Origin: a virus
Lineage: Duplodnaviria; Heunggongvirae; Uroviricota; Caudoviricetes
DNA: 64,000 nt
Strand: one strand, 5' to 3'
IMG/VR virus record: IMGVR_UViG_3300028805_000073
Position 1 is the first letter of the stretch, and the number at the start of each line of letters is the position of its first letter. Made by a program: the position numbers and the translations under genes. Below the pieces are notes generated by a model, which was given only the letters and a program-made list of their open reading frames with translations, was not told where the DNA came from and searched no databases. Of the stretch, positions 2,493 through 62,400 are shown piece by piece.

Positions 2493-2547
2493 AAACCCCG
2501 AAGCAGAACTCATTTTTGAGTTTTGTTTCGGGGTTATTTTTTACTAG
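2493..2547. terminator. Bidirectional hairpin terminator between convergent genes
   Basis: AAACCCCGAAGCAGAACTCA-ttttt-GAGTTTTGTTTCGGGGTT followed by a T-run. It sits between the + gene ending at 2490 and the - gene ending at 2541. Confidence 0.55.
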
Positions 2548-5500
2548 AATAATTCTGTTTTCTATCCAACTTTTGTTCCCAAGGTATTTAATTTGACCCA
2601 TTCCCATGCTGGAGTAGTTCCGCGTGTAGCAGCAGATGTCTTAATAATAGCATCATAAAAGTCTTGACTACCTTTTATTGCGTTTTTATATTGATTTACT
2701 ACATTAGTCATAGAACTAATTGAAAAAGGAGTCCATTGAACACCTCTACCAAATATTGATTTAGCAAAATTAAAGTCATCAGCAGAACTATCAAAAATTC
2801 CAACTCCTAGATTTATAGCAGTATTAGCCATAGCATTACCAAAGTTCTCATTAGAATGATTTTTAGCGAATTCTTTTTGTCCACTATGCATTAAAGAACT
2901 AGCAAATACTCCAAGGAAGAGTAACATAAACAGATCATACCATAACTAACGTAAATTAGCAGCAAATAATCTTCTTAGATCTGGATCTATGTTTTCACTA
3001 GTTAAAAGTTCTTTTACTCCTTTCAATCCTACATTTTCTAATCCTTCATAATTTCCATTAAATGCTTTTCCAAGATTAATTAAGGTAATTATAATTCCTT
3101 CCTGAGGACGTCCTTTCCATACTTGAATAGGTAGTCCTGTATTCTCGGTAGTAGGTTCTAACTAACCATCCTCTGTTACTTTCCAATACCATTTAACTCC
3201 ATCTTCTTCGTAATCAACATAATAACCTTCTTGAGTATAAGAACGCTACTAAATATATTGATTCTTTTTAGCAGACCAATATGTATTCATCTACATAGTT
3301 AATGCTCCAACAAATGTAGAATTAAACATAGATTTCTTTTCATGAGCATAATAACCATAAATTCTATCAGAGAAAGCTTTTCTTCCTTCAGATTCTCTAT
3401 TACTATAAGCTTTTGGTAAGGGTTTTGGATTTTTTATATCTAATATAAATAAACTTCCATCATCATTTCTTGCTCCCTCTTCTACAAGCTATCTAGCTAA
3501 TGTTATATAATTAGATTTAGCTCTGTTATATTCAGTAATATTAGACTAATCATTATTTGCAAAAGCAGCAAATCTTTTATCTTTAGTCCAATCATAAACA
3601 AGTTTTCCGTTTTTTACTGAATGTGCTTCAAAAGCTCCATCAGCTCTCATTTGAGCTATAAATATAGTCATTCTATTATAATAGTCAGGTCTAGATGAAA
3701 AACGGAATCCTGTATCCCAGAAATGAGTCATTAATCCAGTATTATCAGATTTAATTCTGTCGATATAAGTATTCATATCCATATCATTAATACCGTATTT
3801 CATATTTAATAATTCAGTAATACTTCTGTTATCACCATAATTTCCAAATAAATCTCCCATCACAAACTTCCAGGCCCATGTAAGATTTTCTTTAGTAAAG
3901 GCCATAGTTCCATCAGGCTATTTTACAAATAATTTTATATCCTACCAAATACCATCAAGGAACTAATATGTCTATCTTGGATTAAATGCTAATGCCAATC
4001 TAGAAGCCCATTTCATCATTTCATTAGTGATATCTCGTAAGGTAGCTTCCTAAGTAGTTCTATCTTCCATTGGCTAATTATGAATTTTAGTTTTAATATA
4101 GTCTAGAAGATACTATATATCATTAGTAAACTATGTATTTAAAATAGCTCCTTGAGAATTTAAATGAATTAATAAAGACTATATTACAGGAAATACTTTA
4201 TTTAACTCCTCAGCTAAAGTATAAGCTGAATGTTGTTTTAATAATAAAGTTTCTAGGTTATGCTCAAAGTATTCTTTGCCTCTTCTGTTAATTAATTCCT
4301 CTCTTCTTTCTTTATTTTTAGGATCATCTAAATCAGACATAGTATTAATAGCTTCCCACTATTCTCCTTTCTTTACTAATTCTGACTATTCTGATGATAA
4401 TAACTTTGTAACAGTATCGTCAATTTTCTTTTTTAATTCAACTCTTGTCTAAGCATTCCAAACAGAAAGATATTTAAATCTATTTCTAATAAAATTAGCA
4501 ATTCCTCCTCTCATCGCTACTTCTGAAGAAAAATCTCCTTTAACTAGAGGAGCTTTTAAATATTTTCCTTCTGTATCTTTTGCTATTAATTCTCCCATTA
4601 GATCTGGATTTTTCATCATTTTCTTTAAATCTATTCCATTTCCTCTTGTAGAATTTATTTTTATTATAGCATATTTCAAAAACTCCCTTTCTGCATCATC
4701 TAAAGCAACATTATTATCCCAAGGATTAACAAACTTTACATCAGATGATGTTTTATCATACATATTTTTGTATAGTTCAGTGGTCTGATTAGAAGTAATG
4801 TTCTATTGTATCCATCCAAAACCTTTGCTTTCTTTTAATTTTTTAACTCTTTCTCTTAATTCAGCATCAAATTGAGTTATAATATCTCTAGTATTCTGAT
4901 AAGCTATAGTTACCTGATTCGTTGCTTGGTTAAGAATAGCTGATTGTAAGGTTCCTGGATTATCTATCATTGTTCCACCAAGTCCTACTTTATCACTACC
5001 TAAATTAGTATTTAAATCAAACTTTTTCTGCTCATCCAACTGTTGAACCATCTTTACTCCAGATAATTCTGCAATAGCATATAGAATATCCTTATGTAAC
5101 TTATACTAAGGATTATTATCATCTAATTTATCTCTAATGTTTTGTGTTACTTCTGGATATTGTTCTACTAATTTCTTATCAATTTCTATTAAACTAGCTT
5201 TTAATTCCTCATTAGACTTTCCTTTCCAGTCTAATTTACTTACAGAATTTTTTAGTTCTCTATCTAATCCAGACATTCCATATTCATTACTTTTAGATAT
5301 TACCTCTACAAAATCCTATTTAAGTAAATCGACATAACTAGCCATTCTTATTACACCTTCTGAATTAGCATCTGTTTTAAAATTATTTTCTACTGAAGCC
5401 TAATTACATAATCTAGAGAAATTATAAAGTAATTGTTTATTAGGAACTTCTAATCCAGTTTGTTGAGAAGGACATATTAGTTTAACATTTCCAATTCCTG

Positions 5501-7541
5501 TAAATCTATCAGTAAATAAGTTTTTCATCTAATTCATAACTAATAAAGTTTCTATTAACTCAATATTACCTTTAGTAGAAACCATTGTTAATGAATCAGC
5601 TGAATTATGTGAAAGTTGATCTGACATAAATGCTCCTAATATATAATTTCCTTTTGGAAGTTTTACTTTCTATTTTGGATTATATAAAGCAGATACTCTA
5701 ACTATATCAATTAAATGAGTATTTTTATTTTCAAATAATAATATTCCAAATTGATCTAATAAACTATTTAAAGCAGAAGAATTTTGATCTGGAACAGGTT
5801 TCCAAACATCTGTGTTAGTATATTTTTCTAGCTAACTCTTTACATAATGAGAGTTTCTTTTACTTGATGTTCTAGAAGAACTAAATCCTCGTTGAATTTT
5901 TTCAACAGGATTCTCTCCTGAATTATAATAATAATTATTAAAGTCTTTTCTAATAGAGTTAGAAGTATTTATAGAGAAATTTTCATTATATTCATCTCTC
6001 TTTTTCATCTCTTCTACAATTTTAACAGTGGCTTCTTCCTAAGAATTAGCAGAAACTGTTATCATTCCATCATCATTATATTTATTAGGTTTAAAATAAT
6101 ACTTATTTTGTTGACTATCAAAATTTACTCCTCCGTTTTCTTCTATATAAGATTTATATCCTTCCAATGTAGTATCCTTTTCTTTAATAGGAAACATTTT
6201 GGACATTTCATCTTTTGTAGTCTTTATTACATCTTTTGTTTCTAATGATGTTTTATAATAAGCATTTTTAGGGAAAATCTAATCAAGATTTCCTTCTATA
6301 TTAGCCCTTTCATTACCGGTATCAGAGTTAGAAAGTTTTTGTAACATTGTTCCTCCTTCTTGATCTCCTAAACTAGATATTCCACTAAATGAAACTTTTC
6401 CATTTTCTAGTTTAAAATCTTCAAATTTTAAAGGAACTACAAATAACTCTATATCATTAGGAGGATTAACTCCTAGTGCTTTTAATATTTTACGATATGT
6501 TTCAAGCTAGTACTTAAAAGTTAAAATTTTAGCAGAATTATAATATAATGGATCATTATTAATATTGCTTGTAGTATAATCCTTTGGAGAACATTTAAAG
6601 TCTATTATTCCTACTTGTCCATTTTCTCCTACAGCTATTAAGTCAATCTTACCAATAATTTTAGTTATTTTTCCATTCTCTGTTTGAAACTAAACATCAC
6701 CTACTATTGGTTGTTCAGTTCTTATATAGGCATTCTATCCATACTTTTCACGTAACTCATTATCTAATTGGATACACTATTTTACTATACTTTCTAATAC
6801 CTGATCAGATATATATTTTTTAAATTCTGATCTAATATTATTTTTAAAATAATTTAATATTTCATTAGGAGCATCTTTTAATTGATAAAGATATTTTCCT
6901 TTTTTCTCTTTTCCATCAGGACTTTTATAAGGAATAGTATCTCTATAAAATCTAGAAAACATTTCGTGAACCAAATTACCACAAACTGCTTGCTAAGACC
7001 ACAATCCTCCTTTTCTTATACCCTTTTCTAATTCTCCCTCAATTCTATCTCTAATTTTATTAAGAGTAGCTTCATCAGTAACTCTATCATATCCTCCTGT
7101 AGAATTAGGAGTTAATAAGTCTGATATATACTATAATTCATAAGCATCAAAAGTTCCTATTTTATAAAGTTTGAACTTTTCATCCCAATAATTATCAGAT
7201 TTAAATATAGGAAATACCTATTCTGTAAATCTTCCAGGAATAGTGTGTATTAAATCAGTTACTGAAATATATGGATACTTTAATGTTCCTATATCATCAA
7301 GTTCTTCTGGTTCAACTTCTCTAGCTTCTTCAGCTGACTTTACCTGAATACCTGCTTTCTTTAACTTTTCATATTCTTCCTAAGTCTCCTAAAATCTTTT
7401 AGCATAATGTCTTTGAGTAGAAGTCATTGAATATACAATATCTCCTAATATCTAAACTGAATCTTCTGTATCTAACAGAAAATCATTTAGTTCTTCTTCT
7501 GAAGAAAATTCTTTTCCTTTAAAATTATATCTACAATTCAT
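2541..7541 (-). CDS. Giant virion/ejected protein G1 (1666 aa with TAG read as sense)
   Basis: A single reading frame is kept across ORF-track pieces 2562..2927, 3546..3905, 4449..4763, 4803..5051 and 6777..6974. Every interruption checked is an in-frame CTA (= TAG). ATG at 7541-7539 overlaps the upstream TAA (TAATG). The true stop is TAA 2541-2543. Confidence 0.6.
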
Positions 7542-8596
7542 TATTCACAATTTTCTGTTAGTTCATTACTTTTTAGATACTTCTCTTTTAAATTAGCTAA
7601 CATTCTATGAACAGTACTTTTATTTAAATGTCCTCCTGTTTCTATATTAAAAATGTTAGATTCTGTCATTTCTGCTAATTCTTTTAAAGAGCAATCATAT
7701 AAATTATCTAAAGATTTTACACTGTAATTTCCATCTAAAAATGTATCTAAATCTCTTTGTATGCAATATAACATTTCATTAAGTACATTATCATTTAGTT
7801 CTGATAATAAACTTTTTTGTCCTGTTAAATATTTAGAAAGTTCTTCTACAAATATTTCTTCATTAATATCACTTCTAGTTCTATTTGGATAGAACTAACT
7901 TCTATAATTATAATCAGATAATTGTTCTACAGAATTTACTAATTCATAGAACATATTACTATTCTATCTACTTAAAGTTCCTAGAAATAAATGTAACATT
8001 TCGTGGATAGGAGAATCAATTCCAGCATTATCTATATTAACATAAATGTTTCCATTATTAATAAACGCTTTTGCTCCAGAAACATTTAATCCTGGAAAAT
8101 CATCATCGGATGTTATTGGAATAATATTAATTCCATAATATTTTCTCATTTTGTCTAATGAGTCAATAATTCCACATTGAACTTGACTATCATTAGTAGC
8201 AGTTATAGAATATGGAGTACTTCCTATTCTATATTCACTTGGTCTTGGTTTTATTTCAAATATAGAAACTCCATTTATATCTGTTATTCTTACATCTAAA
8301 TCTCTATGAGTATCATTTATTGTAGCATTAGCTTCTTCTATAGAAGAACTACTTGTTTTATCTAAAATGTTCTATGTACTTTGATAAGTAGTTCCAGATT
8401 TAGTTGTTTTTAATCCCAAACTTTCTCTTAAATAAGGTTCCGAATTAGCATCAGGAATATTATCTAATTCTGGAAATATTCCATACAAATCTTGATATTC
8501 AGTACATATTTCTGCTACAGAATCAGGAGAAATGCCAGACATTTTTGACAAAGTCTGACATTTCTAAGATTCTTTTATTTCACAATAATTTGCCAT
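7541..8596 (-). CDS. HExxH zinc-metallopeptidase-like protein G2 (351 aa)
   Basis: Hand translation from ATG 8596 through pieces 7964..8149 and 7541..7774 gives ...GIDSPIHEMLHLFLGTL... (HEMLH). TAATG overlaps at both ends (8594-8598 and 7539-7543). It contains in-frame TAGs. Confidence 0.5.
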
Positions 8597-10180
8597 TAAC
8601 ACTTAGTATTATCATTTAATAAGGATTCTAGTCTATGTTTAAGTCTACTGTAAATTAGAGCTTCATATGTATGATTTCTACTTTTCCTTTTGACAAACTA
8701 GAAAGCTTTAAAAACATCTTCTTCATTTCCTACTATATCTAAAATGTCCTTCAAACTCATTGAATTTCCATTTATAGATAATAATATTTTGTCAGAATTA
8801 GTTTTCAAAAACTATTTTTTAGCTTCCTCATTTTCTGATAATTCGACATTATCAAAAATCTATGGATTAAGTAGTGTATTTTTTCCTAAAATAAACTTAT
8901 TATTAGTAACAGAATTATTTACTCCAACAGTATCCCATTTTCCTTTTAAAGCTTTTCTTATGTCATCCATTGTTTTATAAGATTCATAATACTATGTTGG
9001 TTCGTGATCTTCGTTATCATCATAGCCTCTTTCGGGTTCTGGATTATTTTCAGCTCCAGAAGCCTCTAATTGTGCTATTTCTGCTTCGGTTAACTAACCT
9101 AAATGCTAAAGAAGAACTTCTCTATTGTTTTCAGGATTAGTTATCCAAGCATACCGCATATTATCAGTAACATCTTTAAAATATACAGTAGGAGCGAAAA
9201 CTTGTAATAAATAGTCTTCTTCAGCATCAAAATCAAATAACTAAACATCAGATGCATCTAAATAAGTTATATACTTATTATAATCTGAAATAGTTTGGTT
9301 ATTATCATAGATTAAGAAATCTTCAAATAAATCAGTTAAAGCCTATTGTCCAGGTTGTCCATTATAAGCTATTAAATTATAATAGAATAATGCTTTAACT
9401 AATCCTCTTTTATTATTTAATTCTACTAATCCTTGTTTAATTTCATTAAACTAAACATTTTCAGCAGGATTGTTCATATTAAAGGATTGTGTTTTAGCTA
9501 AATTAATTGTTACTTGATGGTCTAAATTATAACCATATGTCCTAAGTGAAATTGATTTAACAAAAGCATTATCTGGATAATTTTCCTTTAAATAAGGATA
9601 TATATAATGAATAACATAATCTCTAAATTTCTAATTAGATAAATCAGTTCCAAGTCTTATTGTTTCAAACTTAAGATTTCCACTTTCATCACGAGATTCC
9701 TTTAATTCTCCATTCTTTATTTCAAATTTAGGAATTTCATATTCTTCCTACTGCTACCATAAGAAATTATTATTTATTTTCTTAAATATAACAGGATTAA
9801 GAGTTTTAAAGAATTTATTAATTTGATCCTAGTTCTTTAAACCCAATTTAGGAAATATTCTACTAATAATTTGAGTCTGTGTATCATATACTTTGGAAAC
9901 AGCTTTTCCTCCTTCATATAAAAGATTCATAGTTTTTAAATATCCTTTATAATGTGGAACTCCAAGCATTACATCTAATATATTTACTCCAATTTTAGAT
10001 TCTTCATAAACATTAATAGCATCCTGCTAATAAGTAGGATCATTTAAAAACTTATTTAAATCTAAACTAGTAGATCCATATTTAGATACAAAAGATTTTA
10101 CAAGATCAGAATCTTTATTATTTTTTCTTCTAATTGCTCTATCTAATATTCCATTAAACGAATTAACCCAACTCATCTAA
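8596..10180 (-). CDS. Hypothetical protein G2a (frame-0 coding region; start not resolved)
   Basis: Frame 0 codes cleanly here (for example 9000-9060 gives SGAENNPEPERGYDDNEDHE). It ends at TAA 8596-8598. The upstream boundary is the frame-0 TGA at 10183-10185. The only in-frame ATG below that TGA is at 9969. Confidence 0.3.
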
Positions 10181-10182
10181 TC

Positions 10183-13100
10183 TTGAGTAGAATTAGGTAG
10201 TCCTTGATTAAGTTTAAGAACTGTTCTCAAGTCTCCCATCTCCTCATTAAATGTATTTAGTTTACTTATTTCTGAGAGAATAGAGTATTCTTTGTCTTTA
10301 ATTACTATTTTATCATTTTCAACAGTTTCTCTTGCTCTTATCCAATCAAATACTGAATATAAGAACTTCTTAACTTCTCCTTGATCAGCCTACATAAATT
10401 CTTTAGCTTTTTTTCTAGCTGATTTCTTAGAACTTTTTTCTACTGCCTTTAAATAAGAGTCTATTTCTTTAGCAGCTTTTTCTCCTTTTCTAGATTCTGG
10501 ATCAAGAATATATGCGTCTAATGATTCTTTAAGCTCTCTTAATTTATTATATTCATCAAACTTCTTTTTTAGTTTATCTCTCTTCTCTCCAATACTATCT
10601 TTATATTCCTATTCTTTTTCTTCATTCCATGTCCAATAATGTGGATCAGATTTCACATCTTCCAACATTCTCTTAGCTATCTTCTTACTATCTGTCTCAA
10701 ATTCAAAGTCTCCAGAGTGAAGAAGATATTGAGCCATTTGTTTAAACTTCTTTCTATTCCTCTTGGACCAAAGAGCTGTAGTTAAATTAAATTCTTTGTC
10801 TTCAGGATCTTTTAATCCAAATAACTCATAATAAGTATCAAAGTCTCTATCAATCTCTTTTGGAGGTTGTTTTAGATATCTAATAGCATCAGATAGTTTA
10901 GAAATAGAATTTCCATCAGGATGGAAAACATTTCCCTATATTAATTTAGATAATAGAATACCAGTATTAGAAAGTAATAATGTAGCAACATCCTCTACTG
11001 ATAATCCTAATACTAATCCTGCAGTATAACATCCCATAGTTCCAGGGGTAGCGTTTAATTTAGATAGCGTGGGATCTTTAGCATTATCGGTAGCTAGTGA
11101 TAATAATGCAGACATCATAATAAATGCATCTTTATAATTATCGACTGTATCATATGCTTTTTCTATTTTACTTGACTATAGAGTATCTCTATTTTTAGTA
11201 TAAGAATTAGCTATTAGTGGAAGTTTTTTTCCAAGTATTTTAATATTTGATATAAGACGTTGCTGTTCTTCAAGAGATCCTTCTGAAAGTACTTTATTAT
11301 AATGATGACTCATTGCTTCAAATACTTTCATAGCTGAAGCCACAATTCCAACATTTTCTTTACCAGTTAATGTAAGTACTAACTATCTCATTCTAGCTAA
11401 TATACTTCTATTATCAGAAGTTGTTGGCATTGCAGAAAGTCTATTAAATCCTGGGCTCTTTACTATGTCTTTTACAGTATCTGTAGCTACATCAATACCA
11501 GACTATCCCTAAATTAAATTTATCGGATTTTTAGTAATATTTTTTGATTTTATAGAAATAAAATTGTATAGAGCATCACGTTTTCTCTTATCTCTACGTT
11601 TATCTCTCTTTCCATCTTTTCCTATAAAATGTAAATTATGTTTATTTACAATATTAATATAGTCTACAAACTCAGAAGGAATTGTTCCAAGTTTAGTAAA
11701 TGTTCTGATAAGAGTTCCTAAATCGGATAAATTAGTAAAATAGTCACCATCCTTAGAAAGATCTAAAGAACTTAAATACAATCTATAATCATTATTCTTG
11801 TCCAACTCAACGAATTTTCCAGAGTCATCAAATTTAAATGTATTTTCATCAAGTACTCCATTATTAATTATAGTAAACTAACCAAAGTTCTTAATAATAG
11901 CATGTTGTAATAAATATGTATTTTGATTTAATGTTCCTAAATCCTAACTAAGACCCCATACTCCTTTAGAAATTTCTGTAGCAGTAATGCTGTTATTATA
12001 ATCATCAGTAAATACTACAAAATTCTATCCACTAGAATTTACTCCTTTTCCTTTAACATAATTCTTTTCTATTACATCAAAAGGAATTTTTGAATATAAA
12101 TCATCTGTATTTAAACTTTTTCCTGATGGGAAAGGTAATTTTTCACTTTCTTCAGCTCTATGTTTTTCTCTTAAGTCATAATACGGACTCCATGTAACAA
12201 GTCTTCCGTTATAGAATTTTAATCCTAAAACATTTGCTTTATCAATATCAAAGTCACTACCTTGTAGATAAAGCTACATACGAGAAACATAAATTGAATT
12301 AGTAGTATTACTATCAAATCCAGCAACTCTCATAGCCATAAATGACTAATGTGATTGTGCAGGAGTTCTTGATACTACTGCTTCAAGTGAAGTTAGAAAT
12401 GATGTATATTGTTCCTATGCAAAATCTAAAACTGATTTCATATGAGGATATTTTGTTAGGAATTCATTAACAGAATTAGTGTCTATAGCTTCTAATAATC
12501 CATCAAGTAATTTCTATTGATTAGAAGCATCTACAGTAAATAATTCGTGATGAATTAAAGCATTCTTTCCTACAGTATCCTCAAAAATCTATCCTAAATT
12601 TTCAAATTCTTTATCGAAATTTAAATAAGCTTGAGCTAACTATTCATTATCAGCAATAATTTTAAAATTACTATCATTATTTTCTAATCCTTTCTTATTT
12701 GTTTCGATTTTTCTTTTTACAGCATTCTTTATATAGTTTACTTTACTCTATGCTACTTTATTTGTACTCTATTCTAATTGTAATAAAACATTTTTAGCAT
12801 GATTAATATCGGAATATACTGAGAAATCTCCTAAATTAACTTGATTGTAATCAGCCTATTCTAATATAGATAATAAATCATCAGTCTTTATTACTTCTGT
12901 TCCATTTAAGGTTTTTATAATCTAACAATTTGGAACAAGTTGTCCTGTAGATTCATCAACTTTTGATGGAATTTGATACATTTTATTTCCATCAGAATCA
13001 ACTCTATACATAACTCCATCTACTATTTCTGGAATTATTTTAATATCACTTCCTAATACTTTTCTATTACTGGATGCTATATAGATATGATTTCCATCAG

Positions 13101-50804: not shown

Positions 50805-50806
50805 AC

Positions 50807-51511: not shown

Positions 51512-52236
51512 TATCCAGCAGCATATTTCTAATCATTTGGAAGGATAGGTGTTGCATATTGTCTATAATATTTTAACTTCTATTGAGTAAGTCTATCCTT
51601 TATAACAATATCTAAGAAATTTAAATTTGCATCCATCTATGTAACTTTATCAGCTGAAGGTCCATCACTACAATCACATTGAAATTCCTCTAATTGTCTT
51701 GGATCTTTAAATATAGCAACTATAGACACCTATTTAATTAATGGTGCTCCAAATATATAACAATCTAATAAACCATCCTAATTTGGGGCAATATCTATAT
51801 AAACCCAAGGTTTATTTTTTCCTCTTTTACGATATTTCTAATATGATTTAATTTTATCTATTGCTGAAGTATATACTAAAAACGAATGTTGTCTATCAGA
51901 AGAACCTAAATATTTTATTGTATATCCCAATCCAAAATCTAATAATAACTAAGGAATTTGAAAATGAGCTGTAGGTTCTCCACATACAGTTCCTCTACAT
52001 TTACATTTGTCTAAAGTATCACAATCTACAGGAATACAATTTATAGCTGCAACTAAATCATCTATAGGAAGTATTCCTTTTAACATATATTCTTTAATAA
52101 CAGCTAGCCTCATCTGAACAATCTCTTCCTATAATTGTTCTTTAGACATAGACATATTCTAATGATAACCTCTTAATCCAGATACAATATCATTAAATAC
52201 GGCATCGGCTAGTCGTTCTATTGATGTCCAAGCCAT
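51511..52236 (-). CDS. Hypothetical Cys-containing protein (241 aa)
   Basis: Hand translation MAWTSIERLADAVFNDIVSGLRGYH[Q]NMS... with CIPVDCDTLDKCKCRGTVCGEPT. TAATG at 51509-51513. Confidence 0.4.
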
Positions 52237-52250
52237 AATACAAAAATAAG

Positions 52251-52292
52251 CTAGACTAGACCTATAAGGTCCGGTCTAGCTTTTATTTTATT
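52251..52292 (-). terminator. Strong hairpin terminator downstream of the 299-aa structural gene
   Basis: CTAGACTAGACC-tataa-GGTCCGGTCTAG (11 of 12 base pairs), followed on the - strand by a U-rich stretch. Confidence 0.55.
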
Positions 52293-52300
52293 AAATTAAA

Positions 52301-53200: not shown

Positions 53201-53438
53201 ATCAAATGTTACACATGCTAAACTTTCTTTTGAAGGAGCTTTAATCTAAATATCTGTAACATATGGAGAATCAAATCTAGTATTACCAATTCTAATAGAA
53301 GGAATTCTGCTGTTAGTAGAAGTAATTAAATTGGCATTCTTAACAGTTCCTGCTTTAACCTATGCATCAGTTGCAGGAGTAATTGTGTTGTAAATTGTTT
53401 GGGTTGTAAAACTAAACATAATTAATTAAATTTTAAAA

Positions 53439-54584
53439 TTACGCAGATTGTCCTGCTGCTTCAGGAGTCTATGCCTGAGCTGGATTAGCAATAGACTGAC
53501 TAACTACTGGATGTGTCTAAAGTCTCTGGTCACTAATATTTTCCATAATAAGATGTACCAACTCATTTATAATCTCTTGACAAACATAATCAGGATATTC
53601 TAACAACTAAGAAACATCCTCTGTTCTGTCAAGCTAATACTATGTAAGGCGTATGTGTTGAGGTGCTTTTATATAATCAACATAAACATCAGTAAGTTTA
53701 AATACTGAATCATCAGTACCATATCTGATTTCGATACGTACTTCAGAACGATTTCCATAACGTAAATATGCTCCTTTTTCTCTTAATGAACCACTTACTT
53801 TACTATCTCCATATGTTAAGTCAATAGTATTTTTATAATCATTACCTTGATAAATCTTATTACCAGTTCCATCTACTCCAAGATCTAATAGTCCAGATGA
53901 TACATTTTGATGATAATGTGAATTAGCAGGATCATAAGAAGCTGCGTTTTGATTTACTCCAGGAGAATCAATACCTCTTCCTTGATGTTCTCCTTCATTT
54001 TCATATGTTGCAGTTGGAATAGTAGCATATTTTATATTAGTTCTAGATGTATTTGGCATATTACCACTACCATTATTAGAAAGATCATCAAAACTATCTC
54101 CAGAACTCCATTGATCAACTATTTTATTTACATTATGGATATAATAATAAGGTCTTTTATAATCCGGTTTATTCCAGAAATTATCAAGAACCTAAGAATA
54201 CATATCAGCTGTTAAGCGAGTAGCTGCTGCTCTCCAAGTATCTCCTCTATTATAGCATTTGTAGGTTTTATCAACTCTGTAGATACAAATGCAATTAAGA
54301 ATATGAAGATAATCAGCTGGCATTACAACTTCATAATTTGCTCCATCTGCTAAACTTAATCCATTATAATCCTAAATTTTAGTAGGTTTAAGCATAGCAG
54401 TAGCTTTAAGTACTCTTAAATCATCTGTTGTTTGTTGATTAACATCATAAATATTATATCTTTTGTTGATATAATTATTTATAGCTTTATTTGCGAAATA
54501 ATTAAAATCCTCTAACAGTATGTTAGGAGCATTTTCCTTATTTAATTCAATTAATACACCATCGTATAATTGTCTTGCGGTCAT
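53439..54584 (-). CDS. Hypothetical structural protein (~381 aa)
   Basis: Pieces 54372..54584 and 53640..54059 are in one frame, joined by TAG. Stop TAA 53439-53441. Confidence 0.45.
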
Positions 54585-54593
54585 TTAATTACC

Positions 54594-55456
54594 TTATTTT
54601 TCTTCAGATTTTCCCATCAATTCGGGATAAGTATCTTGTTTTATAAGTTTATATATATTTGCGTTCTTTGGATCTTTTAAATATAATATGGCAGCATCAT
54701 CGGTTGCACCTAATACTACATTATCCGCATATGTATAGAGTTTATTTTTATACATAATAATATGTTTATCTCTAGCTTCTACAAACAGTAATCTAACTGC
54801 TGTATCTCCACCAGTATATAGATTAATAATTTTTTCTGGATCTGTCTCTGCTACTTGTAATAGATAATCTGTTACATCAGCATCAGGCATATTATCCATT
54901 CTATGTCCTAATAATCTAGCCTTTAATACTCTTCCTTCATATCCTCTATCATCATTATAAATATATGATTCAGCATCATGCTTAAGTTTCTTACGAGATA
55001 CTCTTCTATTAGCTTCAACTCCAGGTCTAACGATATAGAGTTCTGCTGTACCATACTTTCTGAGTTCTTTGTTATATAATTCCTTTACACCATAAGTTCT
55101 AGTGTCTCCATTAATTAAAGAAAATCCGGAAGAATCCTTTGCATAGTAATCAGGAGAAATTAAAGGATTATTTTTTATAGCTTCCCATTTAAATCTATCT
55201 CCAACATTATCTAAGTCAAAGGTCATACCATCTACTACATCAATTACTGCATCTTCTCTAATAAAATAGTTCCTATTTGGATCATTCATTTCTTTTTCAT
55301 TAAGAACCATATTTCCATTAGAGTCTACTCTTTTTACACAATCAGGATAATTTCCGTATTTATCTTTACAAGGTTGCATTTTTATAACTATACCAACCTT
55401 TCCTCTTACACTTTTAAGTATTATCTTATTAGATAAATTAATTTCCTATTTAGTTT
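54594..55456 (-). CDS. Hypothetical structural protein (287 aa; alternative start at 55379)
   Basis: ORF 54594..55379 has no TAG over 261 aa. An upstream in-frame ATG at 55456 adds 26 aa and one TAG. Confidence 0.45.
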
Positions 55457-55496
55457 CCTTTGCCATATTATTTCATTAACATAAAAATTTATATTA

Positions 55497-55532
55497 ATAC
55501 GGGCTCCTGAGTAAATCCCAGGAGAACCGTAT
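55497..55532 (-). terminator. Hairpin between two capsid-region genes
   Basis: ACGGGCTCCTG-agtaaatcc-CAGGAGAACCGT with AT/U-rich flanks. Confidence 0.35.
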
Positions 55533-55564
55533 TAACAGTATCTAATTAATTTTATTTTCTTTTA

Positions 55565-56430
55565 TTAAACTTCTCTGATTACATAACTTCTATATGGATT
55601 GAATAAAGCTAATGAGCTATATCCCCACATAATACGTTTAGCACCAGCAACAGGTGTTGAAACTTCTCCAGATTCTAATCCAGTTAATCCACCAACACCT
55701 TTAATATAAGATTGCATCATATCACCACCTTTAAGGGTAAATAATGCTATAGGAGGCTGACTGCTTGTCTTATCACCTGTTACATCAATAGCAAATGCAT
55801 AACCCTTATCAGCATATTCTCTTGTTAATGCTTTATCAACCTTAAAGGTAATTTCGTTACCCATCCAACGATAAGTATCGTATCCTCTAGCTCCAACTTC
55901 TACATATCCATTAGCTTTCATTGACCATAAGTATGATCCATCAGTGTGATACTGTGCAAGATATGTATCAAGTAAATCTCCAAGTTGATAATAGAATGGT
56001 TCATTGCAAATAAATAAATACTTATTACCTGTAGTTTCTCTAGCCTTTTCATTAAGACTTTGAATTGCAGTTCTTAATACATTAATAGTAAGTTTGTTAT
56101 AAGCATATTTACTTGCAAAAGCTTCAACTTGAGGAATTAAACCATCAGAAATATAGATAGGTCTATTTGTTTGTGGATCAACAATAGTAGCTTTACCATC
56201 TTCTGTTACATTACCTTTAGAGAATAATAAAGCATTATTACGTCCTTCAAGGAATGTATTAAGTAATGTCTTTTGAACAGTATCCATTCTATAAATTGTT
56301 TCTGTTAGGGATCCTTGATCCTTACCTTCAGCAATCTTAATGAATACATTTTCTAAAGCAGCATATCTTTCAGAATAATCTGCGTCAAAACGGTGAGTCT
56401 AGATATATCCTCTGTGTTTTTCAACATTAG
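55565..56430 (-). CDS. Putative major capsid protein, 3' exon (open frame extends upstream of ATG 56287 with no in-frame start back to ~56500)
   Basis: ORF 55565..56287 (240 aa) has no TAG. The same frame stays open upstream through ...VFYGDIRGYTEEGYTKW[Q]SNVEKHRGYI[Q]THRFDADYSERYAALENVFIKIAEGKD... with no ATG, which is consistent with an exon. It lies downstream of the scaffold gene. Confidence 0.45.
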
Positions 56431-56439
56431 ACTACCATT

Positions 56440-57800
56440 TTGTGTAACCTTCTTCCGTATAACCTCTTATGTCGCCATAAAAGACTGACTATATTATTAA
56501 TTATTCTAAATATTTATAAATATGTTGTTTATGAGTTCTATTTGTTCCTGCTAAAACCTTCCAAACAGATGTTCCGTTTTCTTTTTCAGCAGCTGTAGCA
56601 GATTCATATTCTTTTACAAGATTTCCTTGTAAATCATATTTACCTACTCTACGTTTTTTATTTATTCCTTTTGGAATATTATAATTTTCAAGTTTTTCTA
56701 ATGACCATAAATATCCGTTTTCATCTGGAGATTTAAATTTTATCGATTTTGTTATATTGGTTTTGCATTCTAATTCAGCTTCTTGTTGAGTTTCATATTC
56801 TTTATTAAAACTTCCATCAGAATTATATTTAAAAACTCGTCTGGATTTTATATATTCAGTTCTTGCTTTATCATAAGACTCTGCTTTTATATAAGATAAG
56901 TAATACTTATTATGTACACAATTTCCTAAAATACAAGCTTTTCTTATAGTAGTTGTTGCAATTCCTGATTTTCTTTCTGCTTCAGCTTGTGTTTTAAATC
57001 CTCCTAAATATTGTCCTTTTAAATTATAAAAATAAATTTTATTAGAATGATTTAATCCTAAATTATAATTAGTTAAATCTAATTTTTCTAATTTATCTGT
57101 AGACCAAAAATAATTTTTAGCTTTAGCTTTTTTTCTTACTGCATAAGAAATTAAAGTGTAATCACAATTTAATTGTAAAGCAGCATCAGCAAAACTTTCA
57201 TATTCATTTAAATAATTTCCATTTTCATCATATTGAAAAACTTTTATTCTTTGAGAGATTAAACATCCAGCAATTCCTCCTAATATCATATTATATACAT
57301 CTGAACGTTCTAAAAACTTTTCATTAACAATTTGTTCTTCTAAATCAGAAGCTTCTTCCAAAGTATTAAAAATAGCTAATGTTTTTCTTTTAAAATTCTT
57401 TGGACCATATTTTTTAACTGCTGCTTGAAAAGCTGTTTTAGCATACATATATGTATAAGGTTGTGTGGCTATTATTCCATTTCCTAAATAACCATCAAAA
57501 ATATCTGGATTTTCTGTTTTATGTAATCCCACATATATTTTTCCATTAATTAAATTTGTTGTTTCATAAACAATATATTTCCAATTTTTTTCCATATTTA
57601 ATATAATTATTTACTCTTTCGATAAAAATTATCTACTCCTTACGGATAGTCGATGAACCTTATTAATAATCCTCTGCTATATTAGAGTGAAAATTAATCT
57701 TGGCTTCTGATTATCTCCGAAGAGATTTCCCAGAAATTAAGTAAATTTTCTTAGTCAAATAATTTAAAATATTATTCTAACTAAGGCACAAAGTAATTTA
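56440..57800 (-). mobile_element. Group I intron (approximate ends) with a GIY-YIG homing endonuclease in P8, interrupting the putative capsid gene
   Basis: On the - strand: P AATTTCTGGGAAATCTC (57722-57738), Q AATCAGAAGCC (57702-57712), UUCG-tetraloop hairpin ATCTCTTCGGAGAT (57714-57727), R GGTTCATCGACTATCCG (57643-57659) with GNRA loop CCGTAAGG, then the endonuclease ORF, then S AATATAGTCAG (56485-56495). The order P-Q-R-ORF-S is canonical. Confidence 0.6.
56501..57595 (-). CDS. GIY-YIG homing endonuclease with three C-terminal DNA-binding repeats (364 aa)
   Basis: KYIVYETTNLINGKIYVGLHKT (GIY...YVG). Three ~45-aa repeats of the form YDENGNYLNEYESFADAA.../KYNSDGSFNKEYETQQEAE.../KYDLQGNLVKEYESATAAE... 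It is intact in the standard code, with zero TAG. Confidence 0.8.
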   Translation of the reverse strand: MEKNWKYIVYETTNLINGKIYVGLHKTENPDIFDGYLGNGIIATQPYTYMYAKTAFQAAVKKYGPKNFKRKTLAIFNTLEEASDLEEQIVNEKFLERSDVYNMILGGIAGCLISQRIKVFQYDENGNYLNEYESFADAALQLNCDYTLISYAVRKKAKAKNYFWSTDKLEKLDLTNYNLGLNHSNKIYFYNLKGQYLGGFKTQAEAERKSGIATTTIRKACILGNCVHNKYYLSYIKAESYDKARTEYIKSRRVFKYNSDGSFNKEYETQQEAELECKTNITKSIKFKSPDENGYLWSLEKLENYNIPKGINKKRRVGKYDLQGNLVKEYESATAAEKENGTSVWKVLAGTNRTHKQHIYKYLE

Positions 57801-58333
57801 TGCATCTCAGGCATATTAGCAGTAATCCATCTTGTCTTATCACCAGGTTGACAAGCACTTAAATCGAGAATGCTTTCATAGTTGTTATCAACTAATCTTA
57901 CTACAACTTCCCAATAATTGTCACCTTTTCTAACAGGACGTGCTACTACCATGCACTACTGACCTGATCCTTCAATCTTGAAAATATCATATTTTTCATA
58001 ATATCTTTCTCTAAATGCCATTATGATTTCAGTTCCACCTGCTCCATCACCATCAGGTACAGCAGCAAATTCAATTCTCTTGATATAATTTGTTTCAATA
58101 TCAAAATCATATTGGAAAGCATTTAAAGATTGATATTTATTTCCACTACCTTTTAAGTTAGTATAGAATACATTTTTAAGAGATTCGGTAATGAAAGATG
58201 CTGTTAAGTCAGTATACATTCTTGAAACAATTCCAAGACGTTGTGGCTTAACTCCAAGGTACTTATAGAAATCTTCATAAGTACGTGTATCACCCATAGT
58301 AGGAATGTTAGAAACAAAACTAGCTATTTTCAT
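57764..58333 (-). CDS. Putative major capsid protein, 5' exon (its last ~10-20 codons and the TAA are probably intron-encoded)
   Basis: 189-aa ORF with one TAG. The TAA at 57764 lies only 26 nt upstream of the intron P element, so the 5' splice site must be inside this ORF. It follows the scaffold-like gene directly. Confidence 0.45.
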
Positions 58334-58349
58334 ATTCAGTTATTCATTT

Positions 58350-59387
58350 TTATTCATCATCGTCATCTAAGTCATTTATTGTTGTATATGAACGATAATG
58401 TTGTGGTTTCGTATTGTTTTTCTTATTTGAATTATCTATTACTACAGTAGGTCTAGTTTGTACTCCTTTTTTCCCGTCTTCCAAACCTCTCTTATATTGG
58501 TTATCAGACACCAATTTTATCTATTGTGCGTAATAATCGGAAATACTATTAAGAGCCTCCTCACCATTAAGGATAAACCAAGCAGCTTTAGTTAAGGTTT
58601 CTGGATCTTGTAAGGCTTCAAAAAGATAGTTCTTTCCAGACTGATCTCTTGATAACATAAACTCAGCAAGTTCTTCTCTATCAGCATCCTCAAAGTTTAG
58701 ATCAAAGCTTCCAACAGAGTTAAAATTACTTATAGCGTCAATCACTTGAGACTAATATTCTTGAAATTGTTCAGCTTCTTTTTGTTCTCTTTGAGCTTGC
58801 TCTTGTTGAGCTTGTAAATCTTCTCTTTCTTTATACTCTTTACGAATTCCTTCTACTTGTTTCTTGAAAAATTCTTCGTTAGATTTAACAGTATTTAATG
58901 CCTAAACAGCTTCATCTTCACTTAATTCTCCAACTCTAGATTCTAAATCAAGTAAATATACTTCATCATCAGATAAATCATCTATTTTATACTATGGAGT
59001 AACTTCTACTTGTTCTCCCTTAATAGACTCTAAATATTCAACTGGAGATAATTTACTTTCTCTGATTTGATTTATTAAATTGATTTCATCTTCTGTTAAA
59101 TCATTATTGTTATTATCTTCTTGTTCTGTTTCTAAAGGCATATTTAAAATATTAACTTTTTCTTCATTGGATAAGTCATTCCAACTTCTTTCAACTAAAT
59201 TTCCATTTTCATCTTCAAAGTTAATTTTATTTAAATCATCTATACCTCTAGTTTTTAAAAAATCTGACATAAAATCTCCTTCAGACTCCTAACCAGCAGG
59301 TGGAGTTACGGGAGGTTCTTGAATTTCTTCCTATTGACCAGGTTCAAGAATGTCGTCATCATCTAAATCATCAATTCCTATTGCCAT
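58350..59387 (-). CDS. Scaffolding-like acidic coiled-coil protein (345 aa)
   Basis: Pieces 58992..59270 and 58521..58745 are joined by TAGs. Hand translation runs from ATG 59387 (MAIGIDDLDDDILEPGQQEE...) to ...DLDDDE*. It is acidic, with an EEDLQAQQEQAQREQKEAEQ heptad region. Confidence 0.5.
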
Positions 59388-59475
59388 ATTTATTATATTT
59401 TTAATTAAATTGAAAACAATAAAGTTTCATATTAAAAATACTACTCCTTTATTGTTTTCAAAAAATTTTTATTTA

Positions 59476-62400
59476 TTATCCACAGAAGAACTAATACCAC
59501 CGATTATCTCCATTTACAACAGCTTTAATAAACATCTGTGGTCCATAACCTATTGATATTGAAACATCCTAATTATTATCACTAGCTTTTACAATAGTAG
59601 CAGTACTAATATCTTTAACACTAACTGTTACTCCACTCTATTGAGTAGATTTTACATAAACAACTTCAGAATATCCAGTTATATTTTCTGAATAAGGCAA
59701 ATAATAATTTCCCTAAGTAGTTATAAGGTTAAATCCACACTTTAAAGTATTATTTGTATTTGGAGTAGAACTAGATGGACTACTTGGAAAATTCTGTGAT
59801 ATATATAATGAATCCGTAGTTAATAACTATAAATTTGATCTACCATATACTCTTAAAGCATCAGTACTATAGTCCGGAGTTCCAGAAATTGCTCCATTCT
59901 AATACAATTCTATATATAAAGGAGTATTTATAATACCAGCTGAACCAAGTGAACTATTTGTTCCAGTATTAGGAATAAAATAAACAACTTTTTTACCGCC
60001 ATTATTACCATACTATCCATAAATTTGAATATTTCCAGATGATAGATTAGAACCAGCTCGGTCAGAAAGAGCTCCCGCATGATAATCACTTGTCTATAAA
60101 TGATCATTATAAATATCAAACCCACCTATAGTTCCTCCAGTAGCTATTATATTACCTTCAACATTAACACCTCCAGAAGAATCTATTAAGAATTTATTTT
60201 GAGCAGCACCTTGTTCTCCAGTTAATAAATTAACCCACCAATTTGGTTCAAACGAATTTGTGAAAGTGAGTGTAAGTTTAAAATTAATACTTGTTGTTGA
60301 ATTTGTTCCAACTCTTATATATCCATCATAACTTGAAGTTCTAGAGCCAGTATTAGGATTAGCAGTTGTTGTATTTACATTAACTATAGATGGATTATCA
60401 TGTCCATCTACTAATACACAATTTAAGACTCCAGATGTTGTAATTCTTTCTAATGTTGCATCAATTTTAACTCCGCTTGGAATATTCAAAGGTATTTTAT
60501 AACTCGATTCATTTGTACAGCTTCCAGTAAATACTATATTATTAGTAGGAGCACAAATAAATTTAGTATATGCTGGAACTCCAACAGATATTGTTGTTCC
60601 ATTATTATACTAAGTAGAACCTATTTTACCATTTGTAGAGATTATATAATCTCCACTTATAATAGCACTACCAAATTTAGCAAAGTTACCAAAATATGCT
60701 TCTGCCATATAAAACTTATTTTCATCCATCATCTATTTCCAGTGAGAATCAGCATAGATATTTTCGACTTGAGTTGGCCATCCAGTAGCAGTACGACTAC
60801 CATTACCATCTAATTCTGAATCTAATACATATAAAACATAAAATTTTTCATTATATTTTATGTAAGGAGCTTGATACTTTGTTGCTTTACAATTAGTTAA
60901 TAAAATATTATCTTTTCCATATTCTCCAACATAATAATACATTTTTCCAGCAGAAGCAGGTTGTTGAGTTATGTCTGGAATAGCAGGAACAAGTGCTCCT
61001 ATATCACTCCATTGTTCAGGTTTTATACTGTCAATACTACCATTAGAAGCAGCCGTAGCATGAATTTCATATAATGTCTAATTTCCAGAAGGAGGTGATA
61101 ATTTCCAATTTCCAATATATTCGTTTGTAGTTCTTTCATCTGTATATAATTTTTTACTTTCAAAATTATAATATAAAATACTATTAGGTTTGTTATCATT
61201 AGTTAGAACTTGAGTAGACCTCTAATATAAAAAGACACTTGCTATATTATAAAGCATATTTCCAGCAGCATCAACTCTTATAGGTTCACTCCATTCAGTT
61301 TTATTTATATCATCACTTATCGTCTAACCGTATGCTATAGCAGTAGTCATATATAGATCATTACTACCTTCTGGTATATTAATAGACCATCCATTGTTTT
61401 TACTACTATCATTCCAACTTAAAGTTTTATTTTTAAAATTATAATTAGATTTACTATCTATTCCAGTTTCAGTTAATTCTAATGAAGATCTTTTATAAAG
61501 TCTTATTGTAGCCTAAGAATATCCTGGTTCGTTTGGTTTTAAACAATAGATTTTTCCAATATCTACTTTTTCACTATTATAATATAAGCAAATATTATAT
61601 CCTCCTTCTTTATATGGTAATGGATTTGTTTCTTTCATCTATAAACCTGTATAATAACCAGACTAAGAAGGAGAAACTCCCTGGAAATATCCATCTTCAG
61701 TATCAATATTATAATAAATACCTTGAGTATCAGAAATGTCAATAGAATAATCACTATTACCAGGACGAGCTCCACTAGGATTATAAACACGTACTCCAAA
61801 ATTTCCTTGTGATCCATCATTTCCTATTTTTTTACATTCTATTCTTATAGTATTATTGCTGTCTGATACTTCTCCATTACTATTATAATGTATAACATTA
61901 TCATAAATAAGTAATTTAGGAAACGATCCATCGTTTGAAAGATCTGATATATTTAAATTAGAACATATTGTAACATCAAAAGAAGTTTCTTCTACTATTA
62001 ATTGTAAAGTATAATGATATAATCCCGTAGATAGTTTATTAATAGTTCTGCCTGATTCTTTATAGATAACAAATATATTACTTTCTGTTGTCTATCCCTA
62101 TTCAATCAAGTTATATTGATTATTATTAGTTTCAGTGTATAATTTTAATCCATCTGGAAGAACAATATCTGTTACTTTAAATTTACAATTCATAGTAACA
62201 TTAGAATTTGCTCTATATACAGTTATAGAATTACGTGTAGCTGCTTTTAATCCTGCATCATTAGTTGTATTATCATCAACATAACTACATGGATTATTTT
62301 GAGTCATAATGTATGCTTCTGTTCCCTATCCCTCTCCAGCAGGACCTCTATCACCTCTAATTGAAAAATCAACAGTTTCATTATCAACTATTTTTAGTTC

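What the first reader, a model, noticed from the sequence alone, without database searches (positions are those of the whole stretch)
2541..59478. Amber (TAG) codon read as sense, most likely Gln, across the late/virion gene block
On the - strand, coding potential runs for kilobases but the standard-code ORF track is chopped every ~20-30 codons. At every break inspected by hand the interrupting codon is TAG and the reading frame continues unchanged. The breaks checked include 2946, 3918, 2562, 7541-region pieces, 38287, 39007, 56399, 57956, 58521 and 58992. TAA and TGA terminate genes, often in TAATG or ATGA overlaps with the next start. Within the endonuclease repeats TAG sits at the same conserved position three times. 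This is a code-15-like reassignment of the kind known from some crAss-like and Lak phages. The window holds more than 55 kb of such genes.
Basis: seen in the sequence. Interest (0 to 1): 0.85.

Follow-up and report, generated by a model that had tools for sequence, protein, structure and literature searches.

The report
TAG-to-glutamine recoding in crAss-like phage

Summary
Confirmed, but not new. If TAG alone is read as sense, the minus strand becomes 28 tiled genes of up to 3,583 aa. ORFs of at least 100 aa then cover 62.4 kb, against 22.3 kb under the standard code. Making TGA or TAA sense does nothing comparable. There are 422 in-frame TAGs in 20,129 codons, 47% of all Gln-type codons, and genes end only in TAA or TGA. 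Two tests that do not depend on translation identify glutamine. Against a standard-code relative (MT835470.1), Gln (CAA/CAG) is the commonest partner of TAG and the maximum-likelihood residue. Against an 80%-identical recoded relative, TAG exchanges mainly with CAA/CAG. Opposite-strand early genes have no in-frame TAG, apart from one TAG at codon 12 if an intron-borne ORF starts at ATG 548. The window holds no tRNA. In every fetched relative that carries a conserved 121-123-aa gene at the head of the late block, a tRNA(CUA) follows it. This matches published crAss-like code-15 recoding. Side finding, outside the window: many of these suppressor tRNAs carry an extra arm whose loop copies the cognate Gln anticodon loop. 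Opal suppressors likewise copy the Trp loop.

The parts
2541..63999 (-). TAG-recoded late gene block: 28 tiled genes, 422 in-frame TAG, terminators TAA or TGA only. The 5' end lies beyond the window.
59476..63999 (-). g01, large fibre-like protein, cut by the window end (1,847 aa in the 99%-identical contig L003). 26 TAG.
58350..59387 (-). g02, acidic 345-aa protein upstream of the capsid gene. 6 TAG; TAG share of Gln-type codons 0.22.
57797..58333 (-). Major capsid protein exon 1 (aa 1-178). 1 TAG.
   Evidence: 61% identity to residues 1-178 of the uninterrupted capsid gene of L007
56456..57796 (-). Probable group I intron that interrupts the capsid gene.
   Evidence: the two exons join seamlessly when aligned to L007; partial Rfam Intron_gpI match at 57631-57805, 40.5 bits, E=1.6e-8, below the gathering score of 50.
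56501..57595 (-). g04, GIY-YIG/NUMOD1 homing endonuclease inside the intron. No TAG (12 CAA).
55565..56455 (-). Major capsid protein exon 2 (Crass_capsid). 2 TAG, one of them aligned to Gln in L007.
50807..51511 (-). g10. Its homologue in L001 matches CrAss_Ring_1. 4 TAG.
40898..46171 (-). g14, 1,757-aa muzzle-type protein (crAss_MUZ on the 83%-identical P0001). 30 TAG.
37481..38281 (-). g17, tail-tip domain protein. 12 TAG out of 14 Gln-type codons.
36727..37329 (-). g18, DUF192 protein. 5 TAG, three of them aligned to Gln in L007.
35970..36776 (-). g19, phage tail lysozyme (Phage_lysozyme2). 11 TAG.
34603..35559 (-). g21, endonuclease-like protein with three zinc-ribbon repeats (DUF4379/DUF723). 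TAG sits at the same HGEF-x-TAG position in all three; L007 has HGEFYQ there.
19347..27983 (-). g25, 2,878-aa protein with an AAA_30 (SF1 helicase-like) domain. 63 TAG. Collinear with a 2,967-aa standard-code ORF in L007.
8596..19347 (-). g26, 3,583-aa protein. 82 TAG.
2541..7541 (-). g28, 1,666-aa protein with a PD-(D/E)XK nuclease domain. 40 TAG. Last gene of the block.
2494..2535 (.). 19-bp G+C-rich hairpin with a T-run, at the point where the late block meets the opposite-strand genes. Terminator-like.
5..2490 (+). Opposite-strand (early-type) genes in standard code. They have no in-frame TAG, apart from one if the intron-borne ORF starts at ATG 548. The same holds for 27 genes (2,926 codons) further left in L004.
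548..1189 (+). Cys/His-rich (HNH-like by eye, no Pfam match) ORF inside a probable group I intron of a Band_7 gene. TAG at codon 12 (581-583); the ORF also ends in TAG.

Best explanation
The window is about 61 kb of the late gene block of a crAss-like phage. The block holds head, tail, lysis-related and giant multidomain proteins, and it is written in genetic code 15, where TAG encodes glutamine and only TAA and TGA terminate.

Shown here: TAG is sense, it behaves as a synonym of CAA/CAG, and it supplies 47% of Gln-type codons in this block. The convergent opposite-strand genes stay in the standard code, apart from one TAG at codon 12 if an intron-borne ORF starts at ATG 548.

Inferred from relatives: decoding is done by a phage-encoded amber suppressor tRNA with anticodon CUA. 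This tRNA is not in the window. In relatives it sits at the head of the late block, about 9-11 kb upstream of the portal gene. It follows two TAG-free ORFs, points the same way as the late genes, and lies next to the divergent early/late junction.

Inferred from published work: the tRNA is charged with Gln by the host's glutaminylation machinery and competes with host release factor 1. Late proteins can therefore be completed only once the suppressor has accumulated, which acts as a translational timer and lock on virion and lysis genes.
For: TAG is the only stop that must be made sense to open the frames.

Genes tile with ATGA/TAATG junctions and end only in TAA or TGA.

Gln is the best-fitting residue against standard-code relative L007: 32 of 146 aligned sites, CAA 19 and CAG 13, 31 log-likelihood units ahead of Glu.

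TAG exchanges mainly with CAA/CAG in the close relative L001: 108 conserved, 19 and 22 changes to or from CAA/CAG, versus 2 for Tyr codons.

ORF lengths and synteny match L007.

Early genes have 0 TAG among 70 Gln-type codons in 2,926 codons, which has probability 8e-20 at the late-block rate.

tRNA(CUA) genes occur in relatives of 179-183 kb that share the late block: L116, L142 and L153. Rfam's tRNA model scores them 59-63 bits.

All 13 of 13 loci retrieved through the neighbouring 121-aa protein carry a tRNA(CUA) immediately downstream.

The flanking ORFs are TAG-free.

Literature: Yutin 2021 (PMC7886860), Peters 2022 (PMC9523058, proteomic proof), Borges 2021 (10.1101/2021.08.26.457843, timing model), and phage tRNA(CUA) as GlnRS substrates (PMC12636597).
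Against: No tRNA gene lies in the window or in the 11.6 kb of near-identical flanks fetched. The suppressor of this particular phage has therefore not been seen.

One recoded relative, MT835492.1 (121 kb), has no detectable tRNA(CUA).

Only one independent standard-code relative aligned well enough for residue tabulation.

The 120-homologue tabulation is circular, because the ENA proteins were called with TAG as Gln.

Aminoacylation, the timing role and the host are not tested. Release-factor genes were not searched for.
Confidence: 0.9

Rival explanations
1. TAG is read as sense, but as an amino acid other than glutamine (Glu, Lys, Tyr, Trp, Leu, Ser or pyrrolysine).
For: Glu (19) and Lys (9) are also frequent partners of TAG sites in L007. 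ARAGORN labels CUA tRNAs 'Pyl' by default.
Against: Likelihood favours Gln by 31 log units over Glu and 37 over Lys. The Gln match rate at TAG sites equals that of ordinary Gln codons (0.219 against 0.229). In close relatives TAG exchanges with CAA/CAG, not with its one-step neighbours. Conserved motifs show Gln in L007, for example HGEFYQ, KSQ and IPQ. Code 15 is proven by proteomics in crAss-like phages (PMC9523058).
Confidence: 0.03
2. TAG is read as Gln, but without a phage-encoded tRNA. Either a host suppressor does the decoding or the host natively uses TAG as a sense codon.
For: No tRNA lies in the window. MT835492.1 is recoded without a detectable tRNA(CUA). Yutin 2021 notes imperfect agreement between recoding and detectable suppressors (PMC7886860).
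Against: Early genes of the same genome avoid in-frame TAG completely, and two of 27 end in TAG, as expected for expression in a standard-code cell. Every relative examined at the head of the late block has a tRNA(CUA).
Confidence: 0.05
3. The TAGs are real stops: the block is a decayed (pseudogenised) or misassembled region.
For: Under the standard code the strand is broken into pieces of mostly under 200 aa.
Against: Only one of the three stop codons interrupts the frames, over 20,129 codons. 108 TAGs are conserved in place in a relative that has diverged to 80% protein identity. The same sequence was assembled independently in JGI and ENA samples at 99-100% identity. Frames, lengths and gene order match a standard-code relative.
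Confidence: 0.01

Closest known systems
Code-15 (TAG to Gln) crAss-like phages, especially the Zeta group of Yutin et al. 2021 (PMC7886860). Proteomic validation in Peters et al. 2022 (PMC9523058).
   Same: Crass-type capsid, muzzle and ring proteins. TAG read as Gln, confined to the late genes. Standard-code early genes. Suppressor tRNA(CUA) in relatives. Relatives have genomes of 174-183 kb. Self-splicing introns with homing endonucleases sit inside conserved genes. Coding switches over short evolutionary distances: MT835470.1 is standard-coded and MT835492.1 is recoded.
   Different: No close relative is present in the GenBank phage collection. The best capsid match is 55% and muzzle match 38% identity, both to unannotated records. 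Placement within Zeta was not tested by phylogeny.
Recoding as a regulator of late and lysis genes (Borges et al., 10.1101/2021.08.26.457843), including the standard-code 'code change module' upstream of recoded genes in Jade phages.
   Same: One contiguous alternatively coded structural/lysis unit. In relatives, a standard-code stretch carrying the suppressor tRNA lies directly upstream of the recoded genes. Low G+C (28%). TAG is rare as a terminator.
   Different: The module seen here is only two small ORFs plus the tRNA. No synthetase or release factor was seen in the fetched stretches. Here the capsid-intron endonuclease avoids TAG, whereas Borges et al. describe a preferentially recoded intron endonuclease.
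Classical amber suppressors that insert Gln: E. coli supE (tRNA-Gln CUA) and su+7 (tRNA-Trp CUA charged by GlnRS). This comparison is from general knowledge, not tested here.
   Same: CUA anticodon. A U1-A72 pair or an unpaired 1:72 position. Gln-like or Trp-like acceptor stems in the phage tRNAs.
   Different: These tRNAs are phage-encoded and serve about half of all Gln-type codons of the late genes. Many carry an extra arm that the classical suppressors lack.
Engineered 'pseudo-anticodon arm' in the variable arm of amber suppressor tRNAs (Mukai 2020, PMC7590224).
   Same: A hairpin in the variable-arm position that displays the cognate anticodon, intended to recruit the synthetase's anticodon-binding domain to a suppressor tRNA.
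   Different: That system is synthetic and needed a synthetase fused to a second anticodon-binding domain. The phage tRNAs seen here are natural. Whether their arm is recognised by any enzyme is unknown.

Membership tests
Genetic code 15 (TAG to Gln) recoded phage | In-frame TAG, and only TAG, interrupts otherwise continuous conserved genes | tested here: met
   422 TAG in 20,129 codons. Making TGA or TAA sense gives no gain.
Genetic code 15 (TAG to Gln) recoded phage | TAG positions correspond to glutamine in standard-code homologues | tested here: met
   L007: Gln is the top residue and the maximum-likelihood residue; TAG exchanges with CAA/CAG; motif examples.
Genetic code 15 (TAG to Gln) recoded phage | Recoding restricted to late/structural genes, with early genes compatible with the standard code | tested here: met
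   0 in-frame TAG in 27 + 5 opposite-strand genes. The one possible exception is an intron-borne ORF.
Genetic code 15 (TAG to Gln) recoded phage | Genome encodes a suppressor tRNA with anticodon CUA | tested here: inconclusive
   Absent from the window and its near-identical flanks. Present in all relatives examined at the head of the late block. The rest of this strain's genome could not be fetched.
Genetic code 15 (TAG to Gln) recoded phage | Gln found at TAG positions in peptides | not testable with these tools
   Needs proteomics. Done for other crAss-like phages (PMC9523058).
crAss-like phages (Crassvirales) | Crass-type major capsid protein | tested here: met
   Pfam Crass_capsid, 32.9 bits against a cut-off of 27, on exon 2; full-length alignment to the capsid gene of L007.
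crAss-like phages (Crassvirales) | Crass-type tail muzzle and ring proteins in a collinear structural module | tested here: met
   crAss_MUZ and CrAss_Ring_1 on the products of L001, which is 88-96% identical in DNA to the window. Weak tblastn match of g14 to Bacteroides phages DAC15/DAC17.
crAss-like phages (Crassvirales) | Placement of terminase, portal and capsid inside the order by phylogeny | not tested
   Portal and terminase lie outside the window. No tree was built.
Zeta group of crAss-like phages (Yutin 2021) | Genome of 145-192 kb | tested here: inconclusive
   Relatives sharing the block are 174-183 kb contigs. This strain's genome size is unknown.
Zeta group of crAss-like phages (Yutin 2021) | [quoted passage not shown] | tested here: met
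   Two probable group I introns with endonuclease ORFs in 64 kb. Both Rfam matches are below the gathering score.
Zeta group of crAss-like phages (Yutin 2021) | Clusters with reference Zeta genomes | not tested
   No named Zeta genome matched in the phage collection.

The most novel reading that the evidence does not exclude
The suppressor tRNAs behind this recoding may solve their charging problem in a way I did not find described in the papers I could search.

In this lineage and in many other phage contigs, amber suppressor tRNA(CUA) genes come in a long form of 87-93 nt. The extra hairpin in the variable region has a loop that reads like the anticodon loop of tRNA-Gln: CUCUGAA, UCUGA, GCUGA, CUUUGAA. 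Long opal suppressor tRNA(UCA) genes carry an extra hairpin whose loop reads like that of tRNA-Trp: CUCCAAA, GUCCAAA.

The stems differ between lineages with compensatory changes, while the loops are kept. The reading is that the extra arm is a surrogate copy of the cognate anticodon loop. It would restore recognition by GlnRS or TrpRS, or another identity reader, which is lost when the real anticodon is changed to read a stop codon.

Alternatively the arm is a conserved relic of an anticodon-arm duplication, or it serves an unrelated function.
Probability: 0.3. Interest if true: 0.8.

Novelty: new member of a known kind. Interest (0 to 1): 0.3.

Why it matters
For annotation: any standard-code gene call on this contig is wrong, and JGI's calls on the identical contig are fragmented. 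It must be translated with table 15.

As a caution: public proteins from some pipelines are already translated with TAG as Gln. Residue tabulations against them are therefore circular.

For biology: this is one more lineage, not represented among named phages, in which a standard-code early block faces a TAG-recoded late block. Relatives carry a suppressor tRNA at the head of the late block, which fits the translational-timer model.

The only potentially new biology is the side finding on the suppressor tRNAs' extra arm. If it is functional, it would explain how stop-codon reassignment copes with synthetases that read the anticodon. It would also give a natural design rule for engineered suppressor tRNAs.

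Tried and rejected
1. Tabulating TAG sites against 120 full-length homologues gave 59% Gln. I rejected this as evidence after finding that the ENA proteins were translated with TAG as Gln (28 of 28 in P0001).

2. PHROGs gave nothing for ten proteins except the endonuclease. Megablast against GenBank phages gave no match.

3. I tried to add more standard-code relatives from IMG/VR. 36 further loci were standard-coded but too distant to align with the window's proteins.

4. I searched for the suppressor tRNA of this very strain. There was none in the window, in L001-L006, or in the flanks. Walking upstream in IMG/VR reached it only in relatives.

5. Rfam at gathering thresholds found nothing in the window. 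It found no ribozyme next to the suppressor tRNAs of relatives.

6. The HNH-like ORF has no Pfam match.

7. Pseudogenisation, TGA or TAA recoding, and non-Gln readings were considered and rejected (see the rival explanations).
Full report
**Observation.** The window is 28.2% G+C. On the minus strand, standard-code ORFs of at least 100 aa cover 22,296 nt, and the longest is 369 aa. Reading TAG as sense raises this to 62,376 nt, with ORFs up to 3,585 codons. Reading TGA (22,371 nt) or TAA (29,388 nt) as sense does not, and neither does TAG on the plus strand (11,634 nt).

The TAG-sense ORFs form 28 genes that tile the strand from 63999 down to 2541. Many have ATGA or TAATG junctions. They hold 422 in-frame TAGs in 20,129 codons, against 444 CAA and 51 CAG, and they end in TAA (23) or TGA (5).

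The three repeats of the endonuclease-like gene at 34603-35559 each read HGEF-x-TAG.

- The block continues to the window's end, so it is not bounded at 59478.
- TAG occurs once per about 48 codons on average.
- TAG use varies between genes.

**Which amino acid.** A first tabulation against 120 full-length homologues of the 1,757-aa protein g14 showed 59% Gln. I discarded it. The DNA of the best homologue showed that the source pipeline had itself translated 28 of 28 TAGs as Gln.

Two tests avoid this circularity.

- First, GenBank record MT835470.1 (locus L007) carries 45 kb of the same gene block in the same order and in the standard code: 43,386 of 44,707 nt lie in standard ORFs. Of 146 window TAG sites aligned to it, Gln is the commonest partner (32 sites: CAA 19, CAG 13), followed by Glu (19). 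The rate of 21.9% equals the 22.9% at which ordinary window Gln codons are matched by Gln. With substitution frequencies taken from the same alignments, Gln is the maximum-likelihood reading by 31 log units over Glu.
- Second, I compared codons with L001, whose proteins are 80% identical and which is also recoded. 108 TAGs are conserved. When they differ, the partner is mostly CAA or CAG (19 in one direction, 22 in the other). Tyr, Trp, Lys, Leu and Ser codons one step away from TAG are rare or absent.

Conserved motifs illustrate the same point: HGEFI-TAG aligns with HGEFYQ, KS-TAG with KSQ, and IP-TAG with IPQ. Code-15 gene lengths and order match the standard-code ORFs of L007.

**What the block is.** Pfam finds the following:

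- Crass_capsid on the capsid gene.
- A tail-tip domain on g17.
- DUF192 on g18.
- Phage tail lysozyme on g19.
- Zinc-ribbon repeats on g21.
- An AAA_30 domain on the 2,878-aa g25.
- A PD-(D/E)XK nuclease domain on the 1,666-aa g28.

Gene products of L001, whose DNA is 88-96% identical to the window, carry crAss_MUZ and CrAss_Ring_1. The window is 100% identical over the 17.5 kb compared to a JGI contig (3300031994, Ga0310691_10000488) and 99.4-99.9% identical to ENA contigs. Relatives in IMG/VR that share the block are contigs of 174-183 kb. This is a crAss-like phage whose relatives' genome size and intron content resemble the Zeta group (PMC7886860), but I did not place it by phylogeny.

**Limits of the recoding.** The block ends at 2541, opposite a 19-bp hairpin followed by a T-run at 2494-2535. 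Beyond it, genes run on the plus strand. Five genes in the window and 27 further left in L004 (2,926 codons, 70 Gln-type codons) hold no in-frame TAG. They end in TAA (13), TGA (12) or TAG (2). At the late-block rate that has a probability of 8e-20.

Within the late block, TAG supplies 47% of Gln-type codons overall. The share is only 3 of 17 in the capsid gene, 0.22 in g02 and 0.14 in g08. It is 0 of 12 in the intron-borne endonuclease (P=5e-4).

**How it is decoded.** No tRNA gene lies in the window or in the near-identical flanks. I walked upstream through relatives in IMG/VR.

- A tRNA with anticodon CUA appeared in the 179-kb contig (L116, 1407-1496). A pattern scan then found one in the 183-kb contig (L142, 512-584) and in an 89-kb contig (L153).
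- Rfam's tRNA model scores them 59-63 bits.
- In each case the tRNA points the same way as the late genes and lies 9-11 kb upstream of the portal gene. It sits just after two TAG-free ORFs (an HTH_36/DnaD_N-like protein and a 121-123-aa protein) and next to the divergent junction with the early genes.
- A protein search with the 121-aa ORF, followed by three look-ups, returned 13 loci. All 13 have a tRNA(CUA) within about 170 nt downstream.

I therefore infer, but have not shown, that this strain carries the same module about 30 kb beyond the window's right end. One recoded relative, MT835492.1, has only Asn, Asp, Met, Tyr and Ala tRNAs, in line with published remarks that suppressors are not always detectable (PMC7886860, PMC12386605).

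Charging with Gln by host enzymes, competition with release factor 1 and the timing role are taken from the literature (10.1101/2021.08.26.457843, PMC9523058, PMC12636597, PMC10879173).

**Comparison with what is known.** TAG-to-Gln recoding of late genes in crAss-like phages has been described repeatedly (PMC7886860, PMC12386605, 10.1101/2021.08.26.457843). The descriptions include suppressor tRNAs, code switches between close relatives, and introns and inteins in conserved genes. It has also been verified by proteomics (PMC9523058). The window is a further example from a lineage with no close named relative. It is a new member of a known kind, and the interest is low.

**Side findings in the window.**

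- The capsid gene is split. Residues 1-178 (58333-57797) and the remainder (56455-55565) join seamlessly when aligned to the uninterrupted gene of L007. The 1.34-kb insert holds a GIY-YIG/NUMOD1 endonuclease and a partial group I intron match (40.5 bits, E=1.6e-8, below the gathering score).
- On the plus strand, a Band_7 gene appears to be split in the same way. There is a group I match at 1158-1276 (36.5 bits). Joining the flanking ORFs extends the Band_7 profile match from position 162 to 173 of 176.
- The ORF inside that second insert starts at 548, has a TAG at codon 12 and ends in TAG.

**Side finding outside the window.** The suppressor tRNAs come in a 73-nt form and in longer forms of 87-93 nt with an extra hairpin in the variable region.

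- Among 22 unique long tRNA(CUA) sequences with a class-I-type body, 19 have YUG in the predicted hairpin loop. The other three have UUUGA or UCUGA in the aligned hairpin.
- Typical loops are CUCUGAA, UCUGA, GCUGA and CUUUGAA. These are the loops of ordinary phage tRNA-Gln genes in the same loci (CUCUGAA, CUUUGAA).
- All three pairs of the stem change on both sides between lineages.
- As a test, I fetched opal suppressors. Of 13 unique long tRNA(UCA) sequences, 12 have an extra hairpin whose loop holds U-CCA-A, for example CUCCAAA. That is the loop of tRNA-Trp in the same loci.
- Controls: long arms of Ser, Leu and Tyr tRNAs show YUG in 7 of 85 and CCA in 0 of 85. Class-II-type CUA tRNAs show neither in 0 of 5.
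- The association of anticodon with loop triplet gives Fisher p=5e-8. The sequences are related, so this overstates the independence of the data.

Nine full-text searches of the held library found no description of such arms in natural suppressor tRNAs (for example). The nearest item is an engineered pseudo-anticodon arm (PMC7590224). Function is untested. I cannot say which form this strain has.

Noticed in passing
window 55565-58333 (-): The major capsid gene is split by a 1.34-kb probable group I intron that carries a GIY-YIG/NUMOD1 homing endonuclease. The endonuclease has no TAG at all (0 of 12 Gln-type codons), unlike its host gene. The same split is present in relative L054.
   Followed up: yes
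window 5-1584 (+): A Band_7/SPFH gene on the early strand appears split by a second group I intron (partial Rfam match at 1158-1276). The intron holds a Cys/His-rich ORF (548-1189) with a TAG at codon 12 that also ends in TAG. If that ORF starts at ATG 548, this is the only in-frame TAG seen on that strand.
   Followed up: partly
window 2494-2535: A 19-bp G+C-rich hairpin followed by a T-run lies exactly between the last recoded gene and the last opposite-strand gene. It looks like a two-way terminator marking the code boundary.
   Followed up: no
P0001 / L001 10001-15289: Public ENA proteins for this lineage were called with TAG translated as Gln, while JGI calls on the identical contig (L002) are fragmented. 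Residue tabulation against such proteins is circular.
   Followed up: yes
L142 512-584 (-), L153 100-172 (-), L116 1407-1496 (+), L280-L292: There is a conserved module at the head of the late block in relatives: an HTH_36/DnaD_N-like ORF, then a 121-123-aa ORF (both TAG-free), then tRNA(CUA). It points the same way as the late genes and lies beside the divergent early/late junction. It was present in 13 of 13 loci found through the 121-aa protein.
   Followed up: yes
L116 1407-1496; L281 4424-4514; L137, L154, L135, L132 and others; opal set L318, L369, L406, L372 and others: Long-form suppressor tRNAs carry an extra variable-region hairpin whose loop copies the cognate anticodon loop: YUG (Gln) in amber suppressors and CCA (Trp) in opal suppressors. 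The stems covary. I did not find this described for natural tRNAs in the papers I could search.
   Followed up: partly
window 52301-59387 (-): TAG supplies only 14-22% of Gln-type codons in the probable abundant head proteins (g02, capsid, g08), against 47% overall and 86% in the tail-tip protein g17. This would fit TAG being decoded less efficiently than CAA.
   Followed up: partly
MT835492.1 (L008-L010) and MT835470.1 (L007): Two unannotated GenBank 'Bacteriophage sp.' records are relatives of the window. One is TAG-recoded in its late block but has no detectable tRNA(CUA). The other uses the standard code throughout the same block.
   Followed up: partly
L094 7017-7091: A more distant relative (104.6 kb) with only sparse in-frame TAGs (4-5 per 1,000-aa gene) carries a tRNA(CUA) about 3 kb upstream of its late genes. 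It may be a lightly recoded stage.
   Followed up: no
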